DNA of 38,576 nucleotides. It comes from Chrysochromulina tobinii (taxonomy: Eukaryota). This document shows positions 12,866-34,276 of this stretch, piece by piece; the stretch's first letter is position 1; every line of letters begins with the position of its first letter. The position numbers were made by a program, and so were the translations under genes. The notes under the pieces were generated by a model. That model was not told where the DNA came from and did no database searches. It worked only from the letters and a program-made list of their open reading frames with translations. Location of the stretch: NCBI GenBank assembly GCA_001275005.1, contig JWZX01003036.1, forward strand, positions 1-38,576, given 5' to 3'.

Positions 12866-14598
12866 ATGAAAGATCTAAGGACTCACCTCTTCCTCGCCGT
12901 CCTCGTCCTGGCCTCCACGCCCGTGTCCGGCGTCTTGCCGAGGCCGCAGCAGCAAACAGACTCGGGAGATGTGTTCTCACTCGGCGAAGAGTTTCAGTTT
13001 CTCGCCGTTGGTGTGCATTCGACGCCCATGCTTCAGAATGCATTCGATCGCTATCGCGCCATCATCTTCCAGCGGCGCAAGCCGGACGGTGCTGCGCCTG
13101 CACTGAGCACAATAACAGGCTGCGACGTGAACGTGACGTCGGATGTGCAAGTCAAGACGCTCACGACGGATGAGTCGTACGAGCTGCATGTCCGAGCGCC
13201 TCGCCTGTTCGTGCGCGCTGCGACCGTCTTCGGAGCCTTGTACGCACTCGAGACGTTCAGTCAGCTCGTTCGCTCCGATTTGTCCATCGATGGCACCGTG
13301 ATCACCGACAAGCCGCGCTTTGCCTACCGTGGCACCATGATCGATACGTCCCGGCACTTTTATCCGGTCACGTCTATCAAGATGCACATCGACGCGATGG
13401 CGTACGCAAAGATGAACGTGCTCCACTGGCACATCGTGGACGAAATCAGTTTCCCGTACGAGTCCGTCGTGCTGCCACAAATGAGTCTCGACGGCGCCTT
13501 CAGCCCCAAGCACGTCTACTCGATCGCGGCCATTCGGGAGATCGTCGAGTACGCGATGCTGCGCGGCGTGAGGGTGATTCCGGAGTTTGACACGCCCGGT
13601 CACGTGAGCCGAGGCTGGGGCTCTCTCGGCGTGCTCACCCAATGCTACGACGTCAAGACGGGCGCGCCGACCAACTTCGGAGCCCTCAACCCGACGTTGA
13701 ACCAAACCTACGCGGTGCTCAGCACCCTCCTCGCCGAGGTCAGGGACGTGTTTGCACCCGAGGCGTACATCCACGTGGGCGGCGATGAGGTTCCTAAGGA
13801 GTGCTGGCAGTCCAACCCGCAAATTGCGTCCTGGCTGCATGAGCACCCGAGTGTGAAGGACTTTGCCGGGCTCGAAACCTACTTTGAGCAGCGGCTGCTC
13901 GCACTGCTCAAAGCGCAGGGCTCGTCGTACATCGTCTGGCAGGAGATCTTCGACAACGGTGTTGAGATCTTGCCAGATACCGTGATCGAGGTGTGGAAGG
14001 GGAGCCCAGGATTGTCTGTGATCACCTCTCATGGCCTCTGATCTCATCTGATTGCCTCGCTCATCAGGTGTGGAAGGGAGGCCACGGAGGCGACCAATGG
14101 CTCTGGCAGACCGAGATGGCGAAGGTGACTGGCGCTGGCTTCAAGAGCGTGCTGTCCGCGCCGTACTACCTCAACTACATCGCCTATGGGGCCGATTGGA
14201 TCAATTACTACTCGATCGAGCCGGCTAACTTTACGGGCGGCGCCGCCGCCGAGTCCAACGGCCTCATCGCCGGGCTTGAGGCCTGCTTCTGGTCAGAGTA
14301 CATTGATGCCACCAACCTCGCTTCTCGCGCATGGCCGCGGGCGGCGGCCGTCGCTGAACGGGCGTGGTCGGCTGAAACCGTGACGAACCTGACGGATGCG
14401 GAACGTCGGCTGCACGAGTGGCGATGCATGCTACTGACTCGTGGCATCAATGCGGAGCCGATCGGCACCTGCTCGGTGAACGCTCAACGCGTTGGCGGGC
14501 CGACGTTGCAGCAGTGGTGCCAATACCAAGTGCCTGGGTACGGTGGCTACTGCGCGGAAGAATGGGATCCCGTGTACAGCGCGCCGTGGGACCGATAA
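12866..14598 (+). CDS. Secreted beta-hexosaminidase (GH20); exons 12866-13990 and 14068-14598
   Basis: Signal peptide. Motifs DKPRFAYRGTMIDTSRHF, KMNVLHWHIVD, RVIPEFDTPGH, catalytic HVGGDEV, EACFWSEYID and WPRAAAVAERAWS. The intron restores the frame. Confidence 0.93.
13991..14067 (+). other. GT-AG intron (77 nt) bracketed by 13-bp direct repeat AGGTGTGGAAGGG
   Basis: Repeat at 13989-14001 and 14066-14078. The 3' end is CTGATTGCCTCGCTCATCAG. Removal gives VIE|VWKGG. Confidence 0.9.
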
Positions 14599-15255: not shown

Positions 15256-18200
15256 TCAAGAGAGCACAAGGTCGGCCATCTGCAGCCCGACATGCATGTC
15301 CTCCTCCTCCTCGTCGTCGTCCTCGTCCTCGGTGCTCGATGTGTCGCCCTCCTCCTCCTCCGCCAACGCCGGCCGGGCGCCATGATGGGCGCTCGACATG
15401 GCGCTCGGGTCCCCTCGAGTGCGTGCGCCCACGACGGCCACCCGCACTGCGGGGTCTGCTCGAATCAGCGCGCCCAACGGCTGCGCCCCGTCGGGGCTGC
15501 CCGCGCTGTGTTGAGCACCAACAACCGCCGGGCCGCCGTCGCCGCCGCCGCCGCCAAGAACTCCAGCGCCCCCATCGTACAGGAGCGTCGCGTCCTCAGC
15601 ATGTCTCTCAGTACCTGTAGGCCTCGAGCTGCCGGGCTCGGGCCGCGGGCGCGGCGGCGTGAACGGCCGTTTCGGGTCGAGGACCCAATTGTGCTCGGCG
15701 GCGGCGGCACGCCCCCGTGCACGCAGAACCTGTGGGCAAGTGGATGGGGCGTCGTGGTGAGCACTAGTGAGCACTTGCATGCACGAGGGGGAGAGCGGCA
15801 CGCCCGCGTGCATGCAGAACCTTGGGGAAGACGTGGAGCTCGCGGCTCATGACGACCATCGCCGCGTCGTTCTTGTGATGGCCGCCGTAATCGGGCGCCG
15901 AGAAGACGGTTAGAATGCGCCCGCCTGCACACCTGCCATCACCAAGGGAAGCAGGCGAGATCACGGCGAGATCACGAAGGTCGTTTGGCGCACTCAGTCG
16001 CACTCAGTCGCACTCAGTCGCAATCAGTCGCAATCAGTCGCACTCAGTCGCACTCAGTCGCACTCAGTCGCACTCAGTCGCACTCAGTCGCACGCGCACC
16101 ACTCGAAGCCGTCCTGGACGCACTGGTGGGCGCGCAGGATGAGCTTGAGCCCATTAGCCGCGCAAAAGGCGCGTACGCGGTCGGGCGCGAAGGCGACCGT
16201 ATTGGGACCTGTGGGGAGAGGGTGCAGGGCGCGGTGAGGAGCACTTGCATGCAAGCGTAGGGTCTCGAGCGCGTTCGACTCGATCGTATTGGGACCCCGC
16301 GAATTCGGATGGCAGCCGACAAGACCGTCTGAGTCTGTTGGATCGGACCAAAGGATCTGATATGGGAAGCACTCAGTGACCAGTCAGTACTGATGAGGAA
16401 ATCACTCAGTGGCCAGTAAGTACTGGGCGATAACTGCTGGCAAGTTGTGCACCATCAGAGGGGCAATCAGTGACTCACCTCGTTGAGCACGTTCCGTTGC
16501 GACAAGTTCACACTCACGGGGCGCGGCAGCTCGCGGAGCTGATCGAGGTTCTGAAGCGACTCGCCTATGCCCCCATGCACAGCAAGCACCACATCGTCAA
16601 TGAGCGCCGCCACGGGCATCATCTCGAACACCTGGTTGATGGCAGTCCACACGTGCGCGCCGTCGCGGCAGCGGCGCATACACTCCTGGCGGAAACCGTA
16701 GTGAGCGTTCACTTGCGGGTCCTCGTGGTTGCCTCGCAGCAACGTGACCCTCGACGGATGGCAGATCTTGAGTGCAAGTAGCAACGCCACCACCTCCAGC
16801 GAGTGCTTGCCACGGTCGACATAGTCACCGAGGAACAGATACGAGCAGTAGTCCACGTCGCCCGTGTATGCATTCGGCGAGCCAAACGCGGCAAAGAATC
16901 GCTGCAAATCTCCAAACTGGCCGTGCAAGTCTCCAAAGATCTTGAGCGGGGCTTTGAGCGGCACGAGCGATGAAGTCGTCCACATGCGTCGCTCGAGGCA
17001 GAGCTTGCACATGATGAGCAGCTCGGCATCTGTGCACACGTACTCGAGTGAGCCTTCGCCCATTCCGCAGCGCTCGAGCGCCGCCGCGTCCCACCCGCCG
17101 AGCAGCAGTGTGTCACACACGCGCTTGGCCACGTCCTTCCCAGGGGCGGGAGAGGGCGGCGCCAACCACGATCTCGCATGCATCTCGACCTGCCGCTTTT
17201 GGATCGCCGCGTCCGTCGGATCGATGTCGACAGAGGTCTGCCGTTGCAGCCCAGTCGGAGCCGCCGCCCTGCCCAGGAGACCTTTGGGGCTAGCCGACGA
17301 GAGAGACCGGTAGGTCATCGGCGCCTCGAGGACGACCTTCTTAAAGGCAAAGCGCACCTCACCGCCCGGCGACGGCGGCGGCTCGCCACCGCCGCGCCGC
17401 CGCCTCGCGCTCAGCAAAGGGCCCTGCGCACCCTCCACAGCGCCGCCCACGACAGCGCCGCCCACGACAGCGCCGCCCACGACAACGCCGCCCACGACAG
17501 CGCCACCCACGACAGCGCACGTGGATGCATGCATGCTCGGGCCGAGGTTGAGCGCCGTACCGGGCAGCGGCGGGTTCATGCCGCCGGCATGTGGCGGCGA
17601 GTCAGGCGCACTCACCTGATGAGGGAAGCAATCATTTTGATGAGGGAGGCAATCAGGGCGGCAATCAGCATGTGGCGGCGAGTCAGGCGCACTCACCTGA
17701 TGAGGGAAGCAATCATTTTGATGAGGGAGGCAATCAGGGCGGCAATCAGCATGTGGCGGCGAGTCAGGCGCACTCACCTGATGAGGGAAGCAATCAGTCT
17801 GATGAGGGAGGCAATCAGGGCGGCAATCAGCATGTGGCGGCGAGTCAGGCGCACTCACCTGATGAGGGAGGCAAGCAGCCTGATGAGGGAGGCAATCAAG
17901 TCGGCAATCAGCATGTGGCGCACTCACCGATAGAGACGGCCTCGAGGCACGTGAGGAAGCACGCACGGGGGTGCCCTTGCCCAAGGCCGACGTAGCCGTA
18001 TCGGAAGCGTCCTCCGCCGACGCCGCCGTCACTGCCACCGCTGTCGCTGTCGCTGTCGGAGCCTGCTGTGAAGCCTGCTGTGAAGCATGCTCACGTTCCC
18101 GATAGGGCGAGGCGGTGCGTGAGCTGTCCGGGCATGAGGCCTTCGGCTTCATCAGCCGGGTAGGGGGCGAGAGCGGCGAGCGGCTGGCGCTCCCTGGGCC

Positions 18201-18977
18201 ACTCCCAAGTGCATGCAGCGTCGGCGCTGCGAGTGGCTGGGCCACAACAGGAGCGTACCGGTACGGGCCGACGGCGCCAGAGGGAGATTCGAATGGAGAT
18301 TCGAAGGGAGCCGCGGCGGCGACGGCGGCGGCAGCGACGGCGGTGGCGGCGCTCTCCTTCGCGGCAGGCAGGCAGAGCGGGAACTCAGTACGGTACAGTC
18401 GGCTGCAACCCCGCAGCTTTAATTGGCCGACGGCCTCCCGAAAAACAGGGAGCGTCAGCCTCGTTCCCACAGCGCCTGTGAGCTGCTCATGGAGCGCGGC
18501 GGCCTCGGCCATCTCGGCCTCGACCTCGAGTGACGGCTGCCCGTACGCGAGCCGCACGTGCCCGAGCAACACCGCCAGCTCGGTGGCACTCAGCTCTCCG
18601 TCGCCGTCCTGATCGTAGACGCGGAACACGTACTGCGCACGCAGGCCGTTCCAAACGCCGCCGTGCGCGGTCGTGGGATCCATGGCGACGAGCGCGACGA
18701 GGAAATCGTAAAAGGAAAGTCGCGTCCCGCGCAGCATCGCACGGTAGTAGTGCGCCTCCATCGTCGCAGGCACGCCCAAGGTCGCAAGGAAGGTCGTCGT
18801 GGCTGCCGCGCCCGCGGCGCCCTCGACGCTCGGCAGCGATTCGTATACGCTGCGGCAGCGATCCACCCGCTCGTCGTCCCATCCTGCGACGCGCAAGAGC
18901 TCCGGCAGAGCCTCTGAAGGGTCATCTTGCCGGTCCCAAGGCTGGCGTGCCGAATCCCACATCCCGTGGTCCATCAT
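15256..18977 (-). CDS. EF-hand-containing PPP-family Ser/Thr phosphatase with BSU1/PPKL-like catalytic domain; proposed exons 18977-17928, 17615-16479, 16356-16296, 16208-16100, 15932-15821, 15729-15256
   Basis: EF-hand YDQDGDGELSATEL. PPP motifs GDLHGQ, GDYVDRG, LRGNHE, VHGG, LWSDP, RAHQCVQDGFE and TVFSAPDY assemble in frame after splicing. Start and last exon are less certain. Confidence 0.88.
15730..15820 (-). other. GT-AG intron (91 nt) bracketed by 28-bp direct repeat with 2 mismatches
   Basis: AGGTTCTGCRTGCACGSGGGCGTGCCGC at 15822-15795 and 15731-15704. Carries the TGCATGCAAGTGCTC...CCCACAG module. Confidence 0.85.
15933..16099 (-). other. GT-AG intron (167 nt) filled by a 10-bp tandem repeat
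   Basis: Removal gives DGFEW-CAGGRILTVFSAPDY. Contains (CACTCAGTCG or CAATCAGTCG) x10 at 15991-16090. Confidence 0.85.
16209..16295 (-). other. GT-AG intron (87 nt, in-frame) bracketed by direct repeat GGTCCCAATACG(R)TCG
   Basis: Removal gives the PPP-typical HPNSRGPNTVAF. Carries TGCATGCAAGTGCTC...CCCCACAG. Confidence 0.8.
16357..16478 (-). other. GT-AG intron (122 nt) with internally duplicated acceptor module
   Basis: GTGAGT donor. Removal gives NVLNE|ILWSDP. Two copies of AGTACTKACTGGYCACTGAGTG...ATCAG. Confidence 0.85.
17437..17518 (-). repeat. 15-bp coding tandem repeat, about 5.5 copies, encoding (AVVGG)n
   Basis: ACAGCGCCGCCCACG units on the + strand. Confidence 0.9.
17616..17927 (-). 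repeat. Four stacked intron-like units (69+81+81+81 nt), each GTGAGT...CCCTCATCAG
   Basis: Units at 17927-17859, 17858-17778, 17777-17697 and 17696-17616. Each begins with a copy of the downstream exon start. Confidence 0.85.
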
Positions 18978-19314
18978 CAGTTCCGTTTGGGCTTGGTGGC
19001 CGTGGGTGCAGGTGGCGCTGTGCGGAACAAAGCGCGGAACAGTCGCGAGGCAAGATACACCGCGGCGAAGATGGCCAACAGATCAAATGGCGAGACGGGC
19101 AGAGCGCCTGCCTCGGCCGACTGAGAGGCCGCCGTGGCTAAAGAGGAGTAGGCCATCGGCACGAGGACGCGCCGGTGGAGAAAGCGTGCCTGTGAATATG
19201 CTCGGTTTTGCGTTTCGGCAGAGATGCCGAACCGATACCGTCTTCGCGAGGGTGGAAACGGCGGCCCGTCGGTTCAAATTCACGAGACAAACGCGCTCCT
19301 TTTTTGGTTCGAAA

Positions 19315-21069
19315 ATGAAAATGGTAGCTCTGGTGACTCGCGCTGGACTCATTGCGGCTTTGTTGCACATTACCAACGCAGTGCCGGCAGCGCAACTGCC
19401 GACGGCTTTGTTGCACAACAGCGCAACTGCCGACATTCGTGACGCTTTCCTCGATGGAGGCTTTGCCGATGATTGGGAGGCTTTGCCGGAGGAGCTCAAG
19501 CCACACCCGGGAGATGAGTTTACTGGCACCGGTTGGGGCACTTTGACGTGCACAACATCAGGATGCGACGAGGTCACCTCGATCCCCGGCTGGAGCGGCG
19601 CGCTGCCCTCGAAGCACTACAGTGGCTACCTACCCGTCGCCAACAGCACTCGCATGCTCCACTACTATTTGCAGGAGGCGGACGCATCTCCTCTTGACAA
19701 GCCACTCGTGTTATGGCTCAACGGCGGGCCGGGGGCCTCCTCGCTCATTGGCGCCTTCACAGAGATGGGGCAGCTGATCTTCAATCGGGACAGCGCGGCC
19801 GAGAGCCCGCCGAAGCTGTTTCGCAATCCCTTCGCGTGGACCACATTGGCCAACATGCTGTATCTCGAGGTGCCCGCCGGCGTGGGCTTCAGCTACTGCG
19901 TCGACCCAGCCGACCCTTGCCATAACAGTGACACGAGTACTGCGGAGCAGAACCACGAGGCGCTGCTCGGCTTCCTGGAGCGCTTCCCCGAGTACAAATC
20001 CCGGCCTTTCTACCTCACCGGCGAGTCGTACGCGGGCATCTACCTACCCACGCTCATGGAACTCATCCTGAAGCGTGGCGCCATCACCAACGTGCGTGGC
20101 CTCGCGATCGGCAACGGCTGCTGGGGCACGCAGGCAGGGACCAATTGCGGCGACGTGACCGGCCAACCGGGGACCACGTGGAAGATTGACGCCGAATACT
20201 TTGCGGGGCGCGGGCTCATCTCTCCCGCGCTCAAGGAGGCCGCCGACGCCGCGTGCGGTGAGTGGATCGACCCGTTGACGCCCACGTGCAAGGAGGCATA
20301 TGATGCCATCTCCGAGGCCCTCGGCGAGTTCAACATCGACAACGTGGATGACTTCTGCGCCAAAACAAACCCCGTCACACTCAAGTCCTTCCGTGCCCTC
20401 GGCGGCCGCTTCGCTCGGTTCACAGCTCGGTTCACAGCCGCTCTACCTGCCGACGGCAGCGCAGACCTGCCCGCGGCCGCTCGTACCACCAGCGGCGATG
20501 CGGCCGCCATCGAGTTTGGTTCGCCCGATAGCTGGTCGGCGGAGGGCGGCGACGAGGCGGATCCCCCAGTCGGTGAGGTTCAGATGTGGTGCGGCGCCGA
20601 GGCCGCGCTGCGTACTTGGCGTTTGCTTCCGGAGGTAGCGGTTGCGATGCATGTCACTTTGGAGCGCAACATTACCTCCATATATGGCCTGCAACGTGGA
20701 TTTCGTTACACCATCGAGCCGCTCGACCTCTCGCCGCTCTACCGTCAGCTGGCCGACACAGCCGGCCTGGGCTTCCTCATCTACAACGGGCAAAGCGACG
20801 CCAACGTGCCGTACAATGGGCAGGTGCAGTACTGGGCGAAGAACTACACGGTCCTCGAGGAGTACAAGCCGTGGTACAAGGACCGCCAACTTTCCCAAGC
20901 AGTCGCGGCAGGCCATGTTCGAGGCCATGTACGCACCTACGCGACGCAAACCGCGGGGAAGACATTCCAGTTTGTCACCATCGGCGGCGCGGGGCACGAG
21001 GTGCCGACCTACCGCCCGAGCGCCGCACTCACGATGCTGCAGAAATTCGTGCTCGAGAAAATGAGATAA
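19315..21069 (+). CDS. Secreted serine carboxypeptidase (peptidase family S10)
   Basis: Signal peptide after ATG 19315. Motifs HYSGYL, LWLNGGPGASS, PAGVGFSY, GESYAG (Ser), NGQSDANVP (Asp) and GAGHEVP (His). Confidence 0.93.
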   Translation: MKMVALVTRAGLIAALLHITNAVPAAQLPTALLHNSATADIRDAFLDGGFADDWEALPEELKPHPGDEFTGTGWGTLTCTTSGCDEVTSIPGWSGALPSKHYSGYLPVANSTRMLHYYLQEADASPLDKPLVLWLNGGPGASSLIGAFTEMGQLIFNRDSAAESPPKLFRNPFAWTTLANMLYLEVPAGVGFSYCVDPADPCHNSDTSTAEQNHEALLGFLERFPEYKSRPFYLTGESYAGIYLPTLMELILKRGAITNVRGLAIGNGCWGTQAGTNCGDVTGQPGTTWKIDAEYFAGRGLISPALKEAADAACGEWIDPLTPTCKEAYDAISEALGEFNIDNVDDFCAKTNPVTLKSFRALGGRFARFTARFTAALPADGSADLPAAARTTSGDAAAIEFGSPDSWSAEGGDEADPPVGEVQMWCGAEAALRTWRLLPEVAVAMHVTLERNITSIYGLQRGFRYTIEPLDLSPLYRQLADTAGLGFLIYNGQSDANVPYNGQVQYWAKNYTVLEEYKPWYKDRQLSQAVAAGHVRGHVRTYATQTAGKTFQFVTIGGAGHEVPTYRPSAALTMLQKFVLEKMR

Positions 21070-21252
21070 GTGAGAAAAAGCATCGATCCCACTGTCAGCC
21101 TTTCATGTGTGTGTTTTTGATCAGGTCGTCCCTTTTTCTCAGCATGCAAGAGTTGCCTCAAACACCCTTTTTCGTCTTATTGCCTAAAACGGATCTCTTT
21201 TGTTTTTCAGAGGGAGGCCTTGTGAGGCCTCTCTTCGTCCTCAGCGTGCGGC

Positions 21253-24200
21253 ATGAACCGCTTCGTATGCTTCTCGTGCTTGGTGTCAATCTATGCGTTG
21301 CCGCGTCAGCAGAGTGCGGTCTCCCTTCAGAAGGAGGTGGAGACTCAGGGCAAACTTTACCACAACCCGCCGCTGCTGCCGGAGAAGGAGCGTCGACGCG
21401 TGCATCACCTCCTTGAACGCGGAGAGCACGCAGTCGGTGCTCTACCGCCGCGAGAGATTGCGGCGAGCAGCGACTCTGTGCTGAATCCTTATACTATATC
21501 TTACGGAGCTATATCTTATCCTGACCGCTTCAACAAGGAGCCGAGCCATGCCTTGCCCGTGTCGAGCAATGCGTTGCCCGCCCATCAAGCTGCTGCGATC
21601 AGGATCATCCTGGACCGTGACCTGAAACAGGCTTCCGCGATCAGGGAACTCCTGGGCAGTGCAGATGGCTTGCAGCCCGAGGAGGGTGAGACTATCGGGT
21701 ATGGCCAACGCGACCTCGCAGCAACTCCCGAAGACAGCGCCATCGCACCGTGCACACCGGGGGAGGACGTCGAGGACGTGCCGTGTGCCCTATGGGCCAC
21801 TCAGGGCGAGTGCGAACATATTCCTGTGTTCATGCACTCAAACTGCGCAGCGTCGTGCCCCTGTCCAACGCCCACGTCCAACACCGGCTTCAGCCAGCTA
21901 GCAGGAAAGCTCCAAGTGTGCAAGCCGTGGTGCCCGGCGCACACAGCCCGATTGGATGTCAAGTGCGCCTTCCCCCAGTGCAACGGGTGTGCAGGGTGCG
22001 ACGCGAGCGACCCAAGCAACTTCCACGCACCGACCGCGGTCATCAAGGATGCGCCGATCATCAAGCCCATCCCGGCATGCAAGCCGTGGTGCCCGGCCCA
22101 CACAGCTCGATTGGGTGTCAAGTGCGCCTTTCCACAGTGCAGCACGTGTGCAGAGTGCGACGCGCTCAACACACCGGCAGCCAAGTTCCCAATCTTGCCC
22201 TTCAACGCTTCGGGAGACGACGAAGTGGGCTTGGTCGATGTAGGCTCGGGAGACTTCAACAACGCGGTCGACGAGCCCATCACACTAGCCTCGCCGGACT
22301 CGATAGGCGGCAGTTGCAAGCCGTGGTGCCCGGCGCACACAGCCCGAATGGAGGTCAAGTGCGCCTTTCCCCAGTGCAACGGGTGTGCAGGGTGCGACGC
22401 GCTCAACCTCAACACACCGACGAAGGTCGATGAGCCCATCCCAACTGCTGTTCTCGAGACAGACACATGCAAGTCGTGGTGCGCCGAGCACACCGCGGCC
22501 CTGGAGGTCAAGTGCACCTATGTCCCGTGCAGCACGTGTGCAGAATGCGGAGCGACGGAAGAAAGGGGTACCAAGCCGACGACTTCTTTTTTCGTCGAGA
22601 CAGACACATGCAAGTCGTGGTGCGCGGAGCACACAGCGGCCCTGGAAGTCAAGTGCACCTATGTCCCGTGCAGCGGATGTGCAGAATGCGCGGCGACGAC
22701 CTCCCCCCAGCCGACCTCCCCCCAGCCGACCTCCCCCCAGCCGACCGCTTCGGCACTCTCGCCGCCCCCTTCGCCATCGCCTCCACCGCCACCGCCACCA
22801 CCGTCGCCACCACCTTCACCATCACCACCTCCACCACCACCCTCGCAGCTGCCTTCACCTCCTCCGCCGTCGCCGCCAACGCCACCAATGACGGAGGAGG
22901 AGACGCAGCTAGCAGCGCCGGCGGAGAAGGTGGCGCAGCCAGCCGAGGACAAGGCGGCCCTCGAGAAGCTTGTGGCCGAAAAGATGGCTGAGCTTCAGAA
23001 AGCCAAACTCGCTCTGGAAGAGAAAGAGAGACTCGCTCTGCAGGAGAAGGAGCGCCTCGCTCTGCCGTCGCCGTCGCCGTCGCCGCTAGCACCATCGCCG
23101 CAGCCGCCGTCACCGCCACCATCGCCGCCGCCGTCGCCGCCACCATCGCCGTCGCCGCCGCCGTCGTGGTCGCCAGAAGTGCAGCCCGATTTCTCACCAC
23201 CACCTCAGGTTCAGCCCGAATTCTCACCACCACCTCAGGAGCAGCTCGACGTTATTGCTGAGCCCTCGAACCTTAGTGCTGAGCCCACGAAGGCGCAGGT
23301 GCTCGTGATCGTTTCGGACCACGGGAGCGGCACGTCGGACTTGGGGGTGGCCCTCAATACGCACCCGTGCATGCATGACCTGATGGAGCCGTTTGGCGAC
23401 GCTCTCGCCCTTTGGTCGTCGAGCAAGCTCGCGAAGGCAACCTGTGGCGAGTCGCGAACGGTCAAGAACGCTCTCTTCGACGCTGACTCGCATCAGCTCG
23501 TCAATGCGGTCAACGCGAAGCTGTCGGGCACGATCGATCGCGTGCTCACGCACTTTAACAAGAAAACCACCACAGCGGATTACTCGGTGCTGTACGAGGG
23601 CCTCGACTACAACCTCGCCGAGTACTTTGTGCGCGTGCGCGACCTCGTGTGTTCTCACATCCCCGCGACGGAGTGCCCGCGTGAAGACTGCGCGATCGTA
23701 CTCAAGTTCTTCCCGGCGTACGTCGACGTGAGTACCGAAGGACAGAAGACTCGGACCGACCTGCCGGATAAGTGCTCCGCGGCCAAGAAAGAGAAGAGCA
23801 TGGGCGCGTGGGCGGACACGCTCGAGTCGCTCCAGAGAAACCCCAAGGTCGCGACGCTGCAGTACAACCGCAATGAGCTCGATCGCCAATTCTCCAACTT
23901 CCACCGCTTCAGCCCGATCGGCACACGGTTCGACTGCACGATCCAACGCTCACCCAGCGAGTACGCGATCGCGGCACGGGATCACACGGACCTCCAGATC
24001 GGGGTCGAAAGCTGCTGGAAGGATGCCGAAGGTGCCGACAAGTGCCTCGGCGATGCCCTCAAGCTCGTCGGCCTCACCCCGCGAGCCATGATGGGCAAAG
24101 GCACGGAGGTGATGATGAGCGAGCTGAACGCGAGAGCCGAGAAAGGAAAGGTCGCCAGCCAGACCTGCTCCACCAACCAGACCGCCACGTTTACACGGTT

Positions 24201-25363
24201 CGCGTCCGGCGTCCAGATCACGGCAGTGTCGCCCTTGTACATGTACAACGCGCAGCAGGATGTCTTGCCGCAACAAGGCTACCCGCCACCTCCGACACCG
24301 CCTTCACCGCCATCATCGCTGCCTGCTCCATCACCACCCCTCTCGCCATCGCCGGCATCGTCACTGAGCTGGAACGATGCTATCCGCGACTGGAGGCTAG
24401 CTGACAAGGTCATGAAGCTTCCCGCCAACAACCGGGGCATCCCAGACAACGTGAGCGAGAACGACAAGGAATGGCAAGCCAGCATCCCTACTCTCGACAG
24501 GACGATGGCACCACCGTCGCAGCAGGGAGGCAAGCCAGAGCAGGGAGGCATGCCAGAGCAGGGAGGCAAGCCAGAGCAGGGAGGCATGCCAGAGCAGGGA
24601 GGCAAGCCAGAGAAGGGAGGCATGCCAGAGCAGGGAGGCATGCCAGAGAAGGGAGGCATGCCAGAGCAGGGAGGCAAGCCAGAGCAAGGAGGCAAGCCAG
24701 AGCAGGGAGGCATGCCAGAGCAAGGCTACCCGACACAGCAGCAGCAGCAGCAGGAGGGCCACTTGCCACAGGAGGGAGGCACGCCGCCGCAGCAGGGTGT
24801 GCCCCCCGCCGCAGCAGGATGTGCCCCCGCCGCAGCGCGACGTGCCCCCGCCGCAGCAGGACGTGCCCCCGCCGCAGCAGCAGGCCCACCCGCCACAGAA
24901 TTCGCCTGACCCGACCGAGGTCAACTCACCGGCCACGGTCGACGAGCCACCGGCCAGGGCCGATGAGCCGCCCGCCGAGGATACCCCGAGGGCAGAGTCA
25001 TGCGAAGACACGAAGGACGTGCCGTGCGCTTCGTTGGCCGCTATTGGCGAGTGCCAACGCATCCCAGTGTTTATGCACTCGACGTGCGCCTTGTCGTGCG
25101 GCTGCCCCGCGCCTGCTTCCTCCGAGGAGCTCCTACGGCGCGAAAGGGCCGACCAGGCTATTCTGGACCAAGCCAGGCTGAGTCGGCTCTGGGAGGAGGA
25201 TCCACCCTTGGCTCGGGGGCATTCGTCCTCAGCGGGACGGAGGCGTCCAGAGGACGTCGCGGTGGTGTCGGCCGAGGCATTAGCAGGGCTTGCCCCTTCC
25301 GAGCGTCGAAGGATAAGTCGGCTGTGGAAGCAAACGGGTGCGCTTTCGGCGCTTGTGCCATAG
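21253..25363 (+). CDS. Secreted mosaic protein: ShK-like domain, five 6-Cys repeats, Pro-rich linkers, sulfotransferase-like domain, PEQGG repeats, and a second ShK-like domain after an apparent frameshift at 24802-24807
   Basis: ORF 21253-24909 plus overlapping ORF to 25363. ShK-like CALWATQGECEHIPVFMHSNCAASC and CASLAAIGECQRIPVFMHSTCALSC. HGSGTSDL...LNTHPC...EPF resembles a sulfotransferase PAPS-binding loop. Confidence 0.75.
24521..24726 (+). repeat. 18-bp coding minisatellite, about 11 copies, encoding PE(Q/K)GG(K/M)
   Basis: CCAGAGCAGGGAGGCAWG units visible in the sequence. Confidence 0.95.
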
Positions 25364-25948
25364 GCGGCCGAAGCACTCGCCGCCACCGGTACGTACTGGT
25401 ACTGGCGAGCCTTATGGCAATGTGGTCTCCACACCAGACTATGCTCCGCGCTGTGGTGGGCGGCGCTATGGTGGGCGGCCATCGTGAGGCGCGCGCGCGC
25501 GCTCGGGCACAGGTGCCTCCATCGAGAGCGAGGTCCCTGGTGCTTGTGTTCCTAACGTTCCTGACCTTCGTTGGAGGCGAGGAGTGTAGCGCCATGAGGC
25601 GTGAGTGCGATGCGGGGAGAGTTCGTTTCCCTTTCCATGTGGGCTCGTGCGTCGCGGTGGCGGTGCGAGCAACGCCTGACGCGGGCGCTGTGACGGTGCG
25701 GGAGCGGGGCCGGGGGCTTGGCATGCGAATCGTTTTGCGTTGTGTGGGATTGGTCACGGGGAAGTTGGGGTGTCCGCGAAAAGAAAGACACAAACACCGA
25801 TTAACTAATGTCCGAACCAGCGTCGAATCGTGATCGTTCACCGACCGTTCGTTTGCATATGCACATGCAAAAATCGCCCAAAATCGGAAAGAAGGACATC
25901 TTGGGGAGGCTCACGCGCTTCTGGAGAGCTGCGCAGCGCAGCTGCGCA

Positions 25949-27976
25949 ATGGTTTTCACCAACGCATTTTTGGTGACTATATTTGCCTTACCGCGTCACA
26001 GGAGTGTAAACTCCCTCGACATGGCTGACGACAAATTTCCTGTCAAGACGATCGTTTTGATGGCGCTCGAGCACGCAGTGGTGGAGACTGAGGCCAAGTC
26101 CCCGCCGCTTCGCCGTCACCCGCCAATGCTGCCGGAGAAGGAGCGCCGACGCGTGCATCGCCTCCTTGAGCGCGGAGTTCACGGAGTCGGTGCGGAGCTG
26201 AGTCCTCATGATCCTGTCCGCTTCAGCGACGAGCCGAATCATACCTTGCACGCCGATCAAGTTGCCGCGATCAGGAATCTCCTGGACAGTGCAGGTGACA
26301 TGCCGCCTGAGGTGCCTCAGCCTATTGGATATGAGATTAGGCGTCCCAATTCAACGAATTCAACTCCCGACACCGCACCGTGCATACCGGGGGAAGACAT
26401 CGCGGGCGTACCGTGTGCCCTATGGGCCACTCAGGGCGAGTGCGAACATATTCCTGTGTTTATGCGCTCAAACTGCGCAGCGTCGTGCCCCTGCCCAACG
26501 TCAACCTCTGTTCCCGGCTCCAGCCAGCTCTCAAACAAGGTGCCAATATGCAAGCCGTGGTGCCCGGCGCACACAGCCCGATTGGATGTCAAGTGCGCCT
26601 TTCCACAGTGCAGCACGTGTGCAGAGTGCGACGCGCTCAACCTCAACGCACCGGCCGCGGTCGACGGGCCCACCAAATTGACCTCGCCGGACTCGATAGG
26701 CGGCAGTTGCAAGCCGTGGTGCCCGGCGCACACAGCCCGAATCGAGGTCAAGTGCGCCTTTCCCGGGTGCAGCACGTGTGCAGGGTGCGACGCGCCCAAC
26801 CTCAACGCACCGATCGCGGACCATGAGCCGAAGCAAGTGAAGGACGATGAGCCCATCTCGACAGACGGTTGCATGGCGTGGTGCGCGGAGCACACAGCAG
26901 CATTGGAGACCAAATGCACCTTTGGACCGTGTAATCAGTGTGCCGGATGCGAGTCGCTCAGCGCGCTCGTCACAGCGCCGACCACGCCGACCTCGATAGA
27001 CGGGTGCATGGCGTGGTGTCCCGCGCACACGGCGGCCCTGGAGGTCAAGTGCACCTATGTCCCGTGCATGCAATGCGCAGTGTGCGAGTCGCTCGACATA
27101 CCGTCCACGGCCGATGCGCCGACCTCGATCTCGCCAATCTCGTCGACGTCGCCGACCTGGCGGAACATGATGGACGGATGCATGCCGTGGTGCACCTTTG
27201 AGGGCATGTGCAACTTCGCCGCATGCATGCAATGCGAAGCATGCGGCGGGCCGGCGCTCAGCCTCGACGCACCGACCGCGGACGAGGAGCCGACCTCGGG
27301 AGACAGTGCACCAGTCGAGCAGGATGCCGCCAAACTGGACCCAATGCTCCTCCCGACATTGCACAAGATCTTAGATCCTGGCACGACCTTGCACGAGACA
27401 TTAGGCGGGTGCGATCCCGCGTGGTGCTTCCCAGACGTTCAGTGGGGCAAGTGCACCATTCCGCAGTGCAAGCGATGCGCAGAATGCGAGCTGCCGCCCG
27501 CGCCGCCTTCTCAAATTCCGAGGCCTTCCACACTGCCATCCACACTACCATCCCCAGTCTCGTCACCGGTTTCGTCACTTGGGTGCGCTCCGTGGTGCGT
27601 GGCGCACACAGCGGCAATGGAGGTCAAGTGCAATTTCATCCCGTGCAAGCAATGTGCCGGATGCGAGTCACTCTACACGCCGTCCAAAGCTGATGAGCTG
27701 GCCTCGTCCGACCTGCCGACTCACCGGCTCTTCATCCCGGGTCACTGGCCATCACCTGTGCGGAAGCGCTACTCGGCCCGTGACGACAAGCGCTCCCACC
27801 TTGCGTCCGACCTGACGTCCGTGAGCACCGATGTGGGCTCTCTGCCCTTCATTCTCGCCATGGCTTCCTTTGCTCTTTGCGCCATCGCCTTCCTTTGCCC
27901 GTACCTGTGGCTGTGCTGCTGCGCTTCGCTTCGCCTGCGAACGACGAAGCTATCAGAAAGAGAGGGCTACGGCTAA
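25949..27976 (+). CDS. Type I membrane Cys-repeat protein (ShK-like domain, seven 6-Cys repeats, C-terminal TM); paralogue of the 21253 gene
   Basis: Signal-like MVFTNAFLVTIFALP. Shares LPEKERRRVHxLLERG, the ShK-like domain and CKPWCPAHTAR repeats with the upstream gene. Hydrophobic LPFILAMASFALCAIAFLCPYLWL near the C-terminus. Confidence 0.8.
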   Translation: MVFTNAFLVTIFALPRHRSVNSLDMADDKFPVKTIVLMALEHAVVETEAKSPPLRRHPPMLPEKERRRVHRLLERGVHGVGAELSPHDPVRFSDEPNHTLHADQVAAIRNLLDSAGDMPPEVPQPIGYEIRRPNSTNSTPDTAPCIPGEDIAGVPCALWATQGECEHIPVFMRSNCAASCPCPTSTSVPGSSQLSNKVPICKPWCPAHTARLDVKCAFPQCSTCAECDALNLNAPAAVDGPTKLTSPDSIGGSCKPWCPAHTARIEVKCAFPGCSTCAGCDAPNLNAPIADHEPKQVKDDEPISTDGCMAWCAEHTAALETKCTFGPCNQCAGCESLSALVTAPTTPTSIDGCMAWCPAHTAALEVKCTYVPCMQCAVCESLDIPSTADAPTSISPISSTSPTWRNMMDGCMPWCTFEGMCNFAACMQCEACGGPALSLDAPTADEEPTSGDSAPVEQDAAKLDPMLLPTLHKILDPGTTLHETLGGCDPAWCFPDVQWGKCTIPQCKRCAECELPPAPPSQIPRPSTLPSTLPSPVSSPVSSLGCAPWCVAHTAAMEVKCNFIPCKQCAGCESLYTPSKADELASSDLPTHRLFIPGHWPSPVRKRYSARDDKRSHLASDLTSVSTDVGSLPFILAMASFALCAIAFLCPYLWLCCCASLRLRTTKLSEREGYG

Positions 27977-29017
27977 ATCTCGGCTCGTTGGTAGCCCGAG
28001 AAAGAACGTACCATCGAAAGAACGTACCCAGCCATCGTAATTGTGTAACAGTCATTCAAATCAAAGTTGTTGTTTCGGCGGATCCTCCCTGTTGCTCGGG
28101 TAGCGACAAGCGAGCCTCGGCGCCGGTCGGCCGTCGCGGCCCGCGCCAAACGTAAGAAATATTCATTTTTCGAGCGGGCGCAGGGCACACATGCATATCC
28201 CACCGCGGAAAGCGCTCCACCGCGCACAGTTTTGACTCCAGCGCACGAAGAGAGTCCCAGACGCGTTCACACTTCACAGAGCCAATGCCTATAGCGGAAC
28301 CAGGGGATACAACTCGACACCCAAAGACACCGAGCTGGCGTACCCATGAATGCGCGAGACAAGGTGCGGACTTCCTCGGCACTTGTCTGTGAACGTAAAG
28401 CAAAAACCGCCTCATCGTACATCGAGCTTCTACCTGTGGCAATGACCTGAGGCTCCACGAACATGGCAAGTACATGACACATGAGTTATCGGGACGCGTG
28501 CTCGTGTGCTCTCATAGATGCCGCTGTGTGTAGCTTCGGGCGACACACTTGTAGCTTCGGGCCGTTCGACTTGCAAGCTCCGATTCGTCAGCGTCCCGAT
28601 CGATTGCTCGAAGCGCTCCGTCACTTTCGGTGCCCTCATGAGCCCAACGGCCGTGCACGCCTTCCGAATCCATGCGGTCGACTAGTAACCGCACTAGCCG
28701 GCGCCCCACAGGCACCGCGCAGTGTGAGACCGGAGCGCGTCAGGACCGTCTGTCCGTCTCTCGTCTGGTCGATCGTCTGGTCTCTCGTCTCAACACGGCC
28801 GCGGGGAAGGCCGCGGTTGGACGGCGGTTTTGGCAATTTGGGGGCCGTAGGAAGGCGCTCACGGACTGTGTTCCCTAGACCTACTTTTGCGCGCCTGCGT
28901 GTCTACATACCCTCGTGCGCACTCTAGAGCCCGCCTCGCGCATACCTGGTTTGATCTCATTTTAAAAGAGCGCTACCTCCAGAGGGCTATACCCATGCCC
29001 GGCCGGCGGAGTTGCAC

Positions 29018-29530
29018 CTACTGCAGGTCTGGCACGCCCCCCCGTCGCGCGGATTCGCGGGCCGCGGCTGTCGCCGCGATCAGACGATCAAACCTGCCCT
29101 GGAAGCGCGCCACCTTACTGTGCAGCACGTACGGCTGAGCCGGGAGCGGCACGAATTGCCTGGTTGGTGGCGGCGCTCGAAATGACACTGCGCCACCAAA
29201 GAAGGAGATGATTGCCCGTATCAGGCGCACCCATAAGGAGTAGATCCATCCGCAAAGGCCGCCGATGAGGACGAGGACGAGTTCCGGTTGCTGCAACAAC
29301 ACTGCGAGGCGCACGCAAACACATGACAAGCAGGTCACATGAGTGTCTCAATCAAACTTCGGCAGCGCGGCGCACGCACTGAGAAAGAATATACCGACGA
29401 ACTGGAACAGCACGGACGAGACTGTGGAGGTCACATAGCCGGACTCTGCTGGCGCTGGAGGTGGTGGACTCGGTGGTTCCATCATGGCGTTGGCTGCCGC
29501 CTCCATGGTTGCCCACTCCTTCTCCGCCAT
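29018..29530 (-). CDS. Small hypothetical membrane protein, about 144 aa; exons 29530-29380 and 29301-29018
   Basis: A GTGCGT...CTCGCAG intron (29379-29302) joins two short ORFs in frame into VGIFFL-M-LLQQPELVLVLIGGLCGWIYSLW, giving two hydrophobic segments. Confidence 0.5.
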
Positions 29531-30176
29531 GATTTCACGCCTCACTTTTCAGCATCGAGGACTATATGAATTCGCAACGACGCCGCCGGTGCGACGCGTA
29601 TGAGACACTGTGAAGTAGGATGGAGTGCGAAGATTCATGAGATCGACGCATTCTTTCTATCTCGGTATCCTATGACGGGACCGGGGTAGGACCGCCATGC
29701 CGGAGGCCAGTAACCTATGAGGCTGACTGAGGTGGGGAGCCGGAATCGGGGGGTCTAGAAGGGACCCGGATGGCTTCACGTGTCACCCATGGTCCTAGAA
29801 GCCACATAGGAGGCCTCGGAGGAGGTACGGCATGGTCCTGAATGGACAGACACGCGCTACGAGACTGTGGACCGGCGGAAGCCGGGAGAGTGGGGGTCGT
29901 CTCAGGGGGCTGAAACAGATCCCATCCGTCCAGGTGCGGGATGAGAGCGGAGACTAAGCTCGGTCCTGCAGAGGCGGGGATGCGGCTTCGAGGGAGCTCG
30001 GCGTTGGAGAGAGGGAGGACCGCGGGAGGCGGTTTGGACCCGGAGCCGAGCCAGAGAGGCTGACGACTCACAGAGGAGGCCCGTGGGGGCGAGAGAGGAG
30101 AGGAGGAGCCGCGGGAAGAGACCGGGGCGGAGAAGGAGGGAGGGCCGCGGGAAGAGACCTCCAGACTCGAGCGCGA

Positions 30177-30698
30177 GGATCGAGAGATCGAGAAATAGAG
30201 AGATCGAGATCGAGAGAGATCGAGAGAGATCGAGAGAGATCGAGAGAGATCGAGAGAGAGGAGAGGGAAGGAGGAGGAGGAGAGGTAGAGAAGGAGGAGG
30301 AGGTGAAGAGGTGACGGAAGGAGGAGGATGAGAGGTGACGGAGGGAGGAGGAGGAGAGTCGACGGTTGGAGGAGGATGAGAGGTGACGGAAGGAGGAGGT
30401 GGAGAAGAGGTGACGGAAGGAGAGGAGGAGAGTCGACGGAAGGAGGAGGATGAGAGGTGACGGAAGGAGGAGGTGGAGAGGTGATGGAAGGAGGAGGAGG
30501 AGAGGCGACGGACGGAGGAGGAGGAGAGGTGACGGAAGGAGGAGGAGGAGAGGTGATGGAAGGAGGAGGAGGAGAGGTGACGGAAGGAGGAGGAGGATAG
30601 GTGACGGAAGGAGGAGGTGGAGAGGTGATGGAAGGAGGAGGAGGAGAGGCGACGGACGGAGGAGGAGGAGAGGTGACGGAAGGAGGAGGTGGAGAGGT
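30177..30698 (+). repeat. Purine-rich satellite block: (GAGAGAGATC)n followed by about 27-bp GGAGAGGTGACGGAAGGAGGAGGAGGA-type units
   Basis: Tandem arrays with extreme G/A strand bias, visible in the sequence. Confidence 0.9.
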
Positions 30699-32612
30699 TG
30701 CCGGAGTTTGGCGATGGGGAGAGCTGGGAAGACCGTGGGAGGCAATTTGGGCCCGGAGCCGAGCCAGAGAGGCTGACGACTCTCGAGAACAGCGGCTGAG
30801 ATGGAGAGTGAGAAGAGCGGTTGAACTCCGAACCGAGCCGGAGGGCTGACGGTTGCGAAGAGGAGGGCCGCGGGAGGAAACCCGGGCGAGGCAAGGTGGA
30901 GGGCCGCAGGAGCGGCGGACTCCGGATCGAGCCTGATGGAGCCGCGGGAAGCGGTTGAGCTCCAGACTGGGCCGGGAAGGCTGAAGGTGCAGGGGCAGCC
31001 CGAAAAGAAGATGAGAAAGAAGATAGAAGCTGCGGGCGGGAGCCCGAGCGGGTCAGGAAGGAGGGCCGCGGGAAGCGGCAGAACTCCGTTCAAGCCTGGA
31101 GGCGAACGTCGGAAGGAGAGAAGAATGAGAAACTCCACTCGAAGAGGGAGCGAAAAAGAAGATCTGCGGCAGGCTGAGACCTGGTCGCGGACGCGACGCC
31201 GGGTGGAGGAGGCGTCGGCGATGGGAGGGCATCTAGTAGATGCTGGCCGAGAGGGCCGAGTCCGTCCAGTGGCGGAGAGGGACAGCCATTCGTTCGAAAC
31301 GAAGTGGCTTGAGAGAGGGATGTGTGAACGCGCCTTGGTGGGCGCGCCTGTGTCTAGGGGTGTTCGACACCGGCGGGCGCCGTTGCGAATTGCATATAGT
31401 ATGCTTCGGGCCGTAAACCCCCCAAACACAGCTCCGCGAAGAACATACGAAGTCCGCTCCTGTTGTAATAGAATAAAGATGAAAGCAGTAGCGGATCTCA
31501 CAGGACTCACACTCTACAGCATGCTGCAACTTGCATGTGACCGACTACTGACCATCACAGCGGACGTCCGGCATGCAAGTAGCAAGAGACCATCATGCAA
31601 GCACATGGCCCAGGTTGTTAGCCCACCTTGCTATCCAACCATGATCAACCGCCGATGTCAGCTCCAGCGGCGAGATGGCTAGCCCGCATGGCTGCCCACA
31701 TGCATGCCCGCGCACGTGCACGCCCCCCCCCCCCATGCCCGCCCGCCAGTTCCCAGCCCCCAGAGCAGTCGCGACACGCGTGTGCGTCGCAGCCGCCACT
31801 ACCCAATCTCTCGGGTGCGCTCCCCAACGACCCCCCCCATGCGCCGTCCGCTGCCCGTGCCTCGTCTCGTCGCGAGCTGAGCGCACAACGATGGCATTCT
31901 TCGTCGTGCATGCCTCCACTGAAGGACGCCGCGTGCTGCTGAGCGGCAGAAAGACCTCAAGGACACGTGCCACGCCCATCCGCCGCCCGATCGCCGCGTC
32001 GAGGGATCGAGGCCACACCCGTCGTAGTCTCTCACTCGACGGGTATGGCGCCAACACCCCTCGTGGTCGATCGAGCTGCGCCCCCCTGCCCCACCGACAG
32101 GACTCCCCCCAACCTGCGAAAATGCTCCGAAAAATGCTCCGAATGCGCCCCACCGACAGGACTCCACCCCCTCCCTGCGAAATGCTCCGAATGCTGCTGC
32201 CTGCCTCGTACGAGTAGAAACCAAGAGGTGCCCCACAGGCACCGCTGGACTGCTGGAAGAAAGATCCTACCCACCGTAGTCGTCTGCCCACCATTCGCCG
32301 CCGCCCTCGCGGTGCCCATGTGACTGGTAACGTCGTCGCGGCTGGCTCGCCGCCTAATGGCGTGACCGTAGAACCTCTCATCATCCCGGCTAATGAAGAA
32401 GCCACTCCCGGCTAATGAAGAAAGAAGGAGCGAGGAGGCAGAAAGCCGTCCACCCTCGCTCCTGCCCGCCCTCTGCTCTCTGACCGCAGCACGTCGTCGT
32501 CCCCCGGCCCAAGCCAACGCCTCATCGATGCGCTCAACATGACGCCTCATCGATGCGCTCAACATGACGCCTCCTCTCGGCACTGGCTTGCCCCGGGCGC
32601 GAGCGCGCGCGC

Positions 32613-34276
32613 TTACGCGTTGAAGAGCTCAATATACCGAGTGCCCATGTGCTTGTTGTTCATAATGGTCGCGCGCTGCGCCTCGGCCGGCGACGTAAAG
32701 GTGACGAAGCAGTCGCCCGACGCGCGCCCGTCGCGCTGGCCGATGACTACGCCGCCAGGGACGACCTGGAAACCAGCAAAGAAGCGCATCACGTCCTCGA
32801 CCGTTGAGCGGAAGGGGATGCCGCGCATTCGGAGGGTCGAGCCTTTCGGGGTCGGGCTGCCTGGCATGTGCGGGCCGCCCATGCCCATGCCCATGTGCTG
32901 CTGCATGCCCCCGTGCGCGCCGCCCATGGCGCCGTAGCCGTAGGCCGCCTGGCCATACGGAGACCCATGCATGCCGTATGCGCCCATGCCGTACGCGGCC
33001 TGCGCGCCCATGCCATTGGGCGCCATGACGGCCATGTTGGCCATGTAGCCGCCCACAAACTGCTCGAGCGCCGCGATGAGCTCGCCGCGCGAGACGCGGA
33101 AGAGCTCGACGTACCTGTGGGGACGCGGCGCCGTGGTGAGCACGTGCATGCAAGGCAGATCATCACGTGGCAATCCACGTGAAGCTCCGAGACGCGGAAG
33201 AGTTCGACGTACCTGCCGCCGATGTGCTGCCGATCCTTGCTCATGGCGCGCTCGCGGTCGTCGGCCGACGAGAACTCGACGTAGGCCTCTCCCGTGGGCT
33301 GCTCGCGCTCGTTGAAGATGAGGTGCACGCCGTTGAGAGGCACTGAGAATCCCGAGAAAAAGTCGAGGATGTCGTTGCGGGTCACCTTGTACGGCAGCCC
33401 GCGCATCTTGACGACCGAATCAGAGCCGGGCATGCCGCCCATGTAGCCCATCTGAGGCATGCCGTAGGGCGCGTAGCCATACGGGCCGCCCATGTGGGCG
33501 GCGGCGGCGTGCTGAGCCATCGCGCTTGGGTGCATCGAGTGCATGCCCGGCGCGAGGTTGTTCGACTTGCCAACGCGCTGCAGCGCCATCATCATCTGCT
33601 CAGGCGTCGCTCGGAAGACTTCGACGTAGCGCGTGCCGATGGTGGCCCGATCCTTGTTGAGCGCGGCGTCGGCGACCTCCTCGGAAGCGAACTCGACGAA
33701 AGCCTCTCCATTGGGCCGTCCATTGGGCCCGAGGATCAGGTGCACGCCGTGAAGACCCTTGGGCGCGTCGTAGCCCTGGAAGAAGGCGAGGATCATCTCA
33801 GCCGTCGTATTGAACGGCAGCCCGCGCAGCCGCACGATGCCATTCGAACCCAGATCCCCCATGCCCATGGCGCCCCACGCGCCGTGGCCGCCCGTTGGCG
33901 TGGCCGGCGCCACGTTGGCCTGGTTCATCTCGCCCTCGCTCGACAGGAAGACCTCGACATATCGCGTGCCCATGTGGCGGTGGTTGAGCGACTGCACGGC
34001 GCGCTCGGCCGCCATATCGGGCAGCTCGACGTACTGCGAGGTGAGAGAAACGAGGGTGAGAGCGGGTGAGAGCGGGTCGTTGGGATGCAAGGCGGGATGG
34101 GTTGGCAGTGGCGGCAGCAGCGGCAGCAGCGGCAGCGGCGGCGGCAGCAGCGGCAGCAGCGGCGCGCAGCGGCGCGCAGCGGCGCGCAGCAGCGCGCAGC
34201 AGCGCGCAGCAGCGAGCAGCAGCGAGCAATAGCTGCTGCTAGCAGGCATGGCAGCAGCTAGCGCCCATGGCTGCTA

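What the first reader, a model, noticed from the sequence alone, without database searches (positions are those of the whole stretch)
15730..33212. Filler family 2: TGCATGCA(A/C)GTGCTC...CAC...CCCACAG acceptor module shared by three introns
Seen: introns 15730-15820, 16209-16295 and 33115-33212 lie in two unrelated genes 17 kb apart. They are 87-98 nt, start with the duplicated exon start, and end with TGCATGCAMGTGCTC, then a CTCAC branch-like word, then CCCACAG. Inference: a second, distinct intron family using the same duplication strategy as family 1.
Basis: partly seen in the sequence, partly recalled or inferred. Interest (0 to 1): 0.7.

Follow-up and report, generated by a model that had tools for sequence, protein, structure and literature searches.

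The report
Self-copying intron module in haptophyte alga
In a freshwater alga, dozens of short introns in unrelated genes share one 25-base piece and sit between two copies of the gene's own sequence; they likely arise when DNA repair duplicates a few dozen bases of a gene and pastes in part of an existing intron, a route to new introns that standard transposon screens would likely miss.

Summary
The three introns are real (minus strand). One is spliced in RNA; the other two are fixed by protein homology. The shared motif is part of a 25-nt branch-point core that is a high-copy repeat in a freshwater Chrysochromulina (144 sites in about 385 kb; 435 DNA contigs pile on one copy). Insertions carry a variable 9-48-nt duplication of host exon in two mirror forms. 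In the other, it supplies the AG acceptor and the insert brings the donor. An orthologous locus shows the empty site with one copy. One intron carries 22 nt of another gene's exon, inherited from that gene's intron, and neighbours in a gene resemble each other more than chance. There are no terminal inverted repeats, no fixed duplication length and no tail. Family 1 behaves the same way and is mosaic with this family. Best reading: tandem duplication at staggered DNA breaks, with filler copied from existing introns at microhomologies and filtered by splicing (mechanism inferred, about 0.5); RNA templating is the main rival. Not found in seven literature searches. New variant of intron-generating elements; interest 0.72.

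The parts
15730..15820 (-). type-A intron (91 nt) in a PPP-family Ser/Thr phosphatase gene
15795..15820 (-). intronic copy (26 nt, 2 mismatches) of the next exon's start; supplies the GT donor
15704..15729 (-). exonic original of that duplicate
15749..15783 (-). branch-point core with an internal 10-nt re-duplication
16209..16295 (-). type-A intron (87 nt, in frame and stop-free if retained) in the same gene
16281..16295 (-). intronic copy (15 nt, 11 exact) of the next exon's start (16194-16208)
16229..16253 (-). branch-point core (variant)
33115..33212 (-). type-A intron (98 nt) in an RRM-domain gene; spliced in one RNA run, retained in contigs of two
33188..33212 (-). intronic copy (25 nt, 1 mismatch) of the next exon's start (33090-33114)
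33153..33187 (-). filler whose 3' part resembles the donor head of type-B introns
   Evidence: a loose end with the same word
33128..33152 (-). 25-nt branch-point core
33115..33127 (-). C-rich tail and AG acceptor
13991..14067 (+). family-1 intron, type A (11-nt duplicate of next exon start); same strategy, other filler
1912..2005 (+). family-1 intron, mirror type B (20-nt duplicate of upstream exon end)
   Evidence: splicing not tested

Best explanation
These are recently gained spliceosomal introns, each made of a duplicated 9-48-nt piece of host exon plus a fragment shared with other introns of the genome, and they were likely formed by repair of staggered DNA breaks in which synthesis switched template to an existing intron at short microhomologies. 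Shown: the shared 25-nt core; the duplication belonging to the insertion (empty allele); splicing of both polarities; one clear intron-to-intron copy; excess similarity between neighbours. Inferred steps: (1) two nearby nicks give a tandem duplication; (2) the gap is filled by copying from another intron, often a nearby one; (3) in exons only products that splice out cleanly survive. The insert must therefore bring whatever the duplicate lacks: branch point and AG (type A), GT and branch point (type B), or branch point alone. That would explain why the branch-point core is the one constant part. Each new intron becomes a new template, so the module would spread like a transposon without needing fixed ends or an enzyme of its own.
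For: Duplication length is variable: 9-48 nt, median 23, in 53 precise cases; decoy controls gave 1 of 101 and 21 of 510. Insert lengths are 39-110 nt with no terminal inverted repeat (4.3 of 10 matches against 4.6 random, n=34). Orthologous loci L044 and L048 (97.4% identical over 3.35 kb) differ by one 78-nt type-A intron, and the empty site holds a single copy of the duplicate. The L064 intron holds 22 nt found in the L114 exon and in L114's intronic duplicate, plus L114's rare core variant, in an unrelated gene; L093 likewise holds part of L023's exon end. The most similar insert lies in the same locus for 10 of 102 introns against 1.9 expected, p=0.0008. At 5' junctions that could be placed, microhomology averages 2.25 nt in 24 (one 25-nt tandem case left out) against 0.73 null, with 9 of 24 at 3 nt or more against 6%. 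The variable end is 5' in type A and 3' in type B. Family 1 shows both forms with another filler. An antisense core copy lies inside an intron at about L046:1676-1700. Staggered breaks give tandem duplications, sometimes with in-cis templated inserts, in mouse ES cells (PMC5730883, passages).
Against: Type-A introns are very precise: 53 are exact and only 2 are off by 3 nt among 69 with a duplicate. That is more than a loose selection filter would give and needs microhomology at GT or a splice-site-guided step. Homology between donor and recipient exon starts is weak (p=0.017; without the L070/L074 pair the mean falls to 2.96 against 2.83 permuted). In 44 of 69 5' junctions and 26 of 33 3' junctions there is an unexplained gap, so no microhomology could be scored. 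66 of 69 sites with a confident coding flank are sense, which fits RNA templating equally well. 40 of 144 sites showed no duplication at the threshold. Gain versus loss cannot be polarised at L044/L048. No repair gene of the host was examined, because no genome is held.
Confidence: 0.5

Rival explanations
1. RNA-templated copying. Excised, trimmed or circular intron RNA (or nascent pre-mRNA) is reverse-transcribed into a staggered cut, by a non-LTR retrotransposon enzyme in trans or after partial reverse splicing by the spliceosome. The long variable duplication is then a target-site duplication.
For: Type A has an exact 3' end at AG and a variable 5' end, as in target-primed reverse transcription (established knowledge). 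Type B starts exactly at GT and often ends about 7-10 nt after the CTCAC word, like a trimmed lariat. Orientation is almost always sense. Whole introns occur in tandem (L017, L032, L074). Trimmed and full intron circles and a post-splicing spliceosome activity are reported in yeast (PMC10996645, passages).
Against: No poly(A) or simple-repeat tail is seen in the listed inserts. Two opposite polarities need two RNA classes. The introns do not fold better than shuffles (z -1.3 to +1.0). An antisense copy exists. No retrotransposon was seen, but none was searched for genome-wide.
Confidence: 0.3
2. Plain tandem duplication at AG|GT proto-splice sites, with the shared core added later by gene conversion between introns or by selection for a branch-point or enhancer motif.
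For: 10 of 144 sites are duplications that span AG|GT. The core holds CTCAC and TGCATG words. Tandem genomic duplication is an accepted route (PMC3443670, passages).
Against: In 27 of 53 precise type-A introns the upstream exon does not end in AG, so the acceptor cannot come from the duplicate. The filled L044 allele differs from the empty L048 allele by duplicate, core and tail together. Host-specific baggage travels with the core.
Confidence: 0.1
3. A classical introner: a non-autonomous cut-and-paste DNA transposon whose target-site duplication supplies one splice site.
For: High copy number. One splice site is carried and one co-opted, as in dinoflagellate ILEs (10.1101/2020.10.14.339549). 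Chrysochromulina MAGs have introners (PMC9860276).
Against: The duplication is 9-48 nt and variable, against a fixed 3-9 nt. There are no terminal inverted repeats and no fixed length or ends. The inserts are mosaics.
Confidence: 0.05

Closest known systems
Introner-like elements of Symbiodinium and Polarella glacialis (10.1101/2020.10.14.339549; parts 1-2 of 4 read)
   Same: [quoted passage not shown]
   Different: There the duplications are fixed at 3-8 nt, with inverted repeats described for Symbiodinium and defined element families. Here they are 9-48 nt and variable, with no inverted repeats, variable ends and mosaic inserts.
Introners of Chrysochromulina sp. MAGs (PMC9860276, Fig. 2C legend and supplement rows)
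   Same: Same genus; no TIRs; carries the 5' splice site and co-opts the 3' site, like type B here.
   Different: Reported TSD is 4 bp. The screen required similarity at both intron ends, which introns with one host-derived end would usually fail. Their consensus sequences were not seen, so identity with a listed family is not excluded.
Daphnia pulex new introns from staggered double-strand breaks (PMC4202315, passages)
   Same: Recent, polymorphic introns with a direct repeat of adjacent exon at the opposite intron end; repair origin proposed.
   Different: Exon-intron repeats there are 4-12 bp and no shared filler family appears in the passages read. Here the repeats are longer and the filler is a recurring module traceable to other introns.
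Intron gain by tandem genomic duplication of AGGT (reviewed in PMC3443670, passages)
   Same: Duplicated exon sequence provides splice sites; 10 of 144 sites here span AG|GT.
   Different: Most sites here take only one splice site from the duplicate and import the rest with a foreign insert.
Sister stwintrons of Hypoxylaceae (PMC8469720, passages)
   Same: Proliferating intron family proposed to spread as filler during end-joining repair.
   Different: Those have 45-55-nt terminal inverted repeats and no flanking duplication.

Membership tests
U2-type spliceosomal intron | GT..AG ends removed from RNA but present in DNA | tested here: met
   33115-33212 is skipped in an RNA contig of X16. In L046:2330-5800, 7 of 7 GT..AG joints, including a type-B intron, appear in 3 of 3 RNA runs and not in the DNA run.
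Introner (intron-generating repeat, broad sense) | many sequence-similar introns at unrelated positions | tested here: met
   144 sites in about 385 kb; 186 cores against 0 in a Markov control.
Introner (intron-generating repeat, broad sense) | similarity reaching both intron ends (criterion of PMC9860276) | tested here: not met
   One end is a host-specific duplicate in types A and B.
Introner (intron-generating repeat, broad sense) | recent presence/absence at orthologous sites | tested here: met
   One polymorphic core-bearing intron with a clean empty site, in one of the 2 orthologous locus pairs available.
TIR DNA transposon / MITE introner | terminal inverted repeats | tested here: not met
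   4.3 of 10 end matches against 4.6 random, 34 inserts.
TIR DNA transposon / MITE introner | short target-site duplication of fixed length | tested here: not met
   9-48 nt, median 23, n=53.
TIR DNA transposon / MITE introner | autonomous transposase partner | not testable with these tools
   No genome is held.
Non-LTR retroposon (SINE-like) | variable-length target-site duplication and 5' truncation | tested here: met
   Type A; type B has the opposite polarity.
Non-LTR retroposon (SINE-like) | 3' poly(A) or simple-repeat tail | tested here: not met
   Inserts end in a C-rich tract and AG, or at the core.
Non-LTR retroposon (SINE-like) | tRNA/7SL/5S-derived head or known RNA family | tested here: not met
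   No Rfam match at gathering score in 5 loci; the 11 weak hits were all far below it. No Pol III promoter test was run.
End-joining (TMEJ / SD-MMEJ-type) templated insertion | junction microhomology | tested here: inconclusive
   Raised in 24 scorable 5' junctions (2.25 against 0.73 nt), but 44 others have a gap of unknown origin.
End-joining (TMEJ / SD-MMEJ-type) templated insertion | insert templated from nearby or ectopic genomic sequence | tested here: met
   Same-locus nearest neighbours 10 of 102 against 1.9 expected; L114 to L064.
End-joining (TMEJ / SD-MMEJ-type) templated insertion | dependence on polymerase theta or NHEJ genes | not testable with these tools
   Needs the genome and mutants.
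Tandem genomic duplication (AGGT) introns | both splice sites come from the duplicated AG|GT | tested here: not met
   Met for 10 of 144 sites only; exon 1 lacks a final AG in 27 of 53 type-A cases.

The most novel reading that the evidence does not exclude
Freshwater Chrysochromulina runs an ongoing, transposase-free intron factory. Any short tandem duplication in an exon can be turned into an intron by copying the missing splice signals from an existing intron. Introns therefore reproduce from introns as mosaics, in two mirror polarities, and a large share of the genome's introns (thousands) arose this way unseen by introner screens.
Probability: 0.45. Interest if true: 0.88.

Novelty: new variant of a known kind. 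Interest (0 to 1): 0.72.

Why it matters
How new spliceosomal introns arise is still open, and recent surveys attribute most large-scale gain to transposons found by end-to-end intron similarity (PMC9860276, PMC12130899; passages). Here a culturable alga shows mass intron gain with a readable footprint: the duplicate marks the target, and baggage marks the parent intron. Parent-daughter trees, template choice and DNA versus RNA templating can then be tested directly, and polymorphic sites show that the process is recent. Because one end of each intron is host-derived, the same process could be hidden in other genomes. A practical side effect: the core has no stop codon in any sense frame, so missed introns would put recurring false peptides into gene models.

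Tried and rejected
No whole genome is held, and the records behind the loci are not held, so a true genome-wide count was not possible. Pattern scans gave 0 in viral contigs and 0 in prokaryote genomes: no sign of a viral carrier at exact match. A structured RNA was rejected: folding z from -1.33 to +0.96 for 5 stretches, two of them offset by one base, and no Rfam family at threshold. An assembly artefact was rejected: DNA contigs of run X7 cover the intron region and RNA skips it. Chance was rejected. Exon-side homology as proof of a DNA template was not established. The in-frame near-miss prediction of a pure selection filter was weakly met (2 of 69). Automatic B and C classes contain miscalls: 7 of 10 single-copy B calls carry the donor head, and several C calls are introns with a shifted duplicate. 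The family-agnostic scan gave 79 calls against 17 in reversed sequence and includes some tandem-repeat and antisense false calls. No transposon-like protein was evident by eye among ORFs at 28-32.5 kb (not scanned against families). Earlier-findings look-ups by sequence and by words returned nothing.

Full report
Observation. The three segments are GT..AG introns on the minus strand (91, 87, 98 nt). Each opens with a copy of the next exon's start and closes with the 15-mer, a CTCAC word and CCCACAG. The 15-mer is far above chance in the window. Two lie in a calcineurin-like (PPP) phosphatase gene and one in an RRM gene. The 98-nt intron restores the RRM frame. It is skipped in an RNA contig of X16 and retained in contigs of X12 and X15. 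The host is a Chrysochromulina: another window protein clusters at 90% with a C. parva protein. That the clade is freshwater is recalled.

Copy number. No genome is held. In DNA run X7, 435 contigs were laid on the 1.7-kb RRM stretch, and summed depth over the module is 14,700-18,200 against about 40 beside it (the tool warns this is no copy number). Of 163 distinct hits, 108 continued into the same next 10 bases, 42 did not, 4 were intermediate and 9 were too near an end. A flanking direct repeat scoring >=12 was found in 82 of 108, 1 of 42, and 21 of 205 random host positions; some of the 82 are module-to-module tandems. After dropping two apparent prokaryotic coincidences, 72 host loci (about 385 kb unique, window included) hold 186 loose copies of a 25-nt core, TGCATGCAMGTGCTCACCACRGCGC, against 0 in a Markov control. 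Conservation drops sharply after position 25. Away from the scan seeds the density is 33 sites in 221 kb. That suggests thousands in a 59-Mb genome (size of C. tobin from PMC4580454), but clustering inflates the estimate.

Anatomy. The 144 sites fall into A 40, B 14, AB 10, C 28, no duplicate 40 and edge 12. Of 102 core-plus-tail introns, 73 are followed by an exon starting with GT. Of the same 102, 69 have an upstream duplicate, and 53 of these start exactly at GT in register, 9-48 nt long with 5.3% mismatch. Type B is the mirror image: a constant 29-nt donor head (for example L046:4964-4992), the core, then a duplicate of the upstream exon end that supplies the AG. Seven of 10 single-copy B calls are of this clean form. 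In type AB the duplicate spans AG|GT. Other copies form 45-64-nt tandem units with no evident splice sites. In L046:2330-5800, 7 of 7 GT..AG joints, including the type-B intron and family-1 introns, are seen in 3 of 3 RNA runs and not in the DNA run. Family 1 (10-nt repeat fillers ending in CTCATCAG) shows both polarities too: of 79 duplication-type calls in 361 kb, 35 carry the core, 29 carry family-1 words only and 15 neither, against 17 calls in reversed sequence. The type-B head is made of family-1-like decamers, and a decamer array at L046:4340-4400 grades into the start of the core, so the two families are mosaic.

Recency and parentage. Two orthologous locus pairs from different assemblies were available. 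In L044/L048 one 78-nt type-A intron is present in L044 only, and the empty site has one copy of the 31-nt duplicate. Its head and tail match the neighbouring intron about 650 nt away in the same gene. The direction of change cannot be fixed from two alleles. In L011/L068 no core-bearing intron was cleanly present in one and absent in the other; tandem-unit counts differed. The L064 intron contains 22 nt that are exonic in the unrelated gene of L114 and sit in L114's intronic duplicate, followed by L114's rare core variant; the two exon starts agree at 13 of 16 bases. L093 carries part of L023's exon end behind an identical head variant. Nearest neighbours by insert similarity share a locus in 10 of 102 cases against 1.9 expected, although mean same-locus similarity is only marginally raised (p=0.06). 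Long contiguous homologous proteins on contigs of 11-241 kb suggest that relatives lack the phosphatase introns; this is inferred, since their DNA was not seen.

Mechanism. There are no terminal inverted repeats, insert lengths run from 39 to 110 nt, and scorable 5' junctions carry more microhomology than chance, while most junctions hold filler of unknown parent. I commit to tandem duplication at staggered breaks with filler copied from an existing intron, followed by selection for clean splicing (0.5). It explains the variable duplication, the mirror polarities, the local and mosaic copying, and the independence from filler type. The core would be the part no duplication can supply, the branch point; that the CTCAC word is the branch point is inferred from consensus. 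Against it stand the high precision at GT and the weak exon-side homology: L070 and L074 have identical inserts and share 10 exon bases, but the signal fades without them. RNA templating (0.3) fits the exact AG and GT ends and the sense orientation (66 of 69), but it lacks a tail, a structure or a known RNA family.

Literature. Seven searches listed no paper describing this family. Known introners have fixed 3-9-nt duplications; Daphnia repair introns have 4-12-nt repeats. An earlier unchecked note on this genome (e1-2577349) describes a repeat-flanked intron family and reads it as a mobile element. I confirmed the same footprint for family-1-type introns, not its locus, and it is not independent evidence.

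Verdict. The feature works like an introner but fails the defining tests of transposon introners. New variant of a known kind; interest 0.72.

Noticed in passing
window 17616-17927 (-): A family-1 intron unit of about 81 nt repeated about four times in tandem in the phosphatase gene. Whole-intron tandems also occur for the core family (L017, L032, L074).
   Followed up: partly
window 33115-33212: An RNA contig of X12 is spliced at the upstream intron but retains this intron, so the young intron may be spliced incompletely.
   Followed up: partly
L046:1-5800: One gene carries more than ten introns, most with a boundary duplicate and fillers of 10-nt repeats; the 10-nt period is unexplained.
   Followed up: partly
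window 8770-9830 (+): A gene with WD40-like repeats (by eye) in which an exon plus a near-identical intron of about 70 nt is repeated four to five times.
   Followed up: no
window 21253-24909 and 25808-27976 (+): Two neighbouring long ORFs share near-identical cysteine-rich repeats, apparently paralogues.
   Followed up: no
window 29700-31400: A purine-rich stretch (GC skew 0.59) with a 24-nt tandem array and repeated flanking blocks; only low-complexity ORFs.
   Followed up: partly
window 36013-36570 and L017:7877-8434: 85% identical stretch, likely paralogous membrane-protein genes.
   Followed up: no
L008, L019, L057, L077: Core-bearing tandem arrays with units of 45, 45, 51 and 48 nt, all multiples of three, and no clear splice sites; they may be translated as in-frame repeats.
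   Followed up: no
core, first half: With the common upstream CT the core begins with a perfect 12-nt palindrome; role unknown.
   Followed up: no
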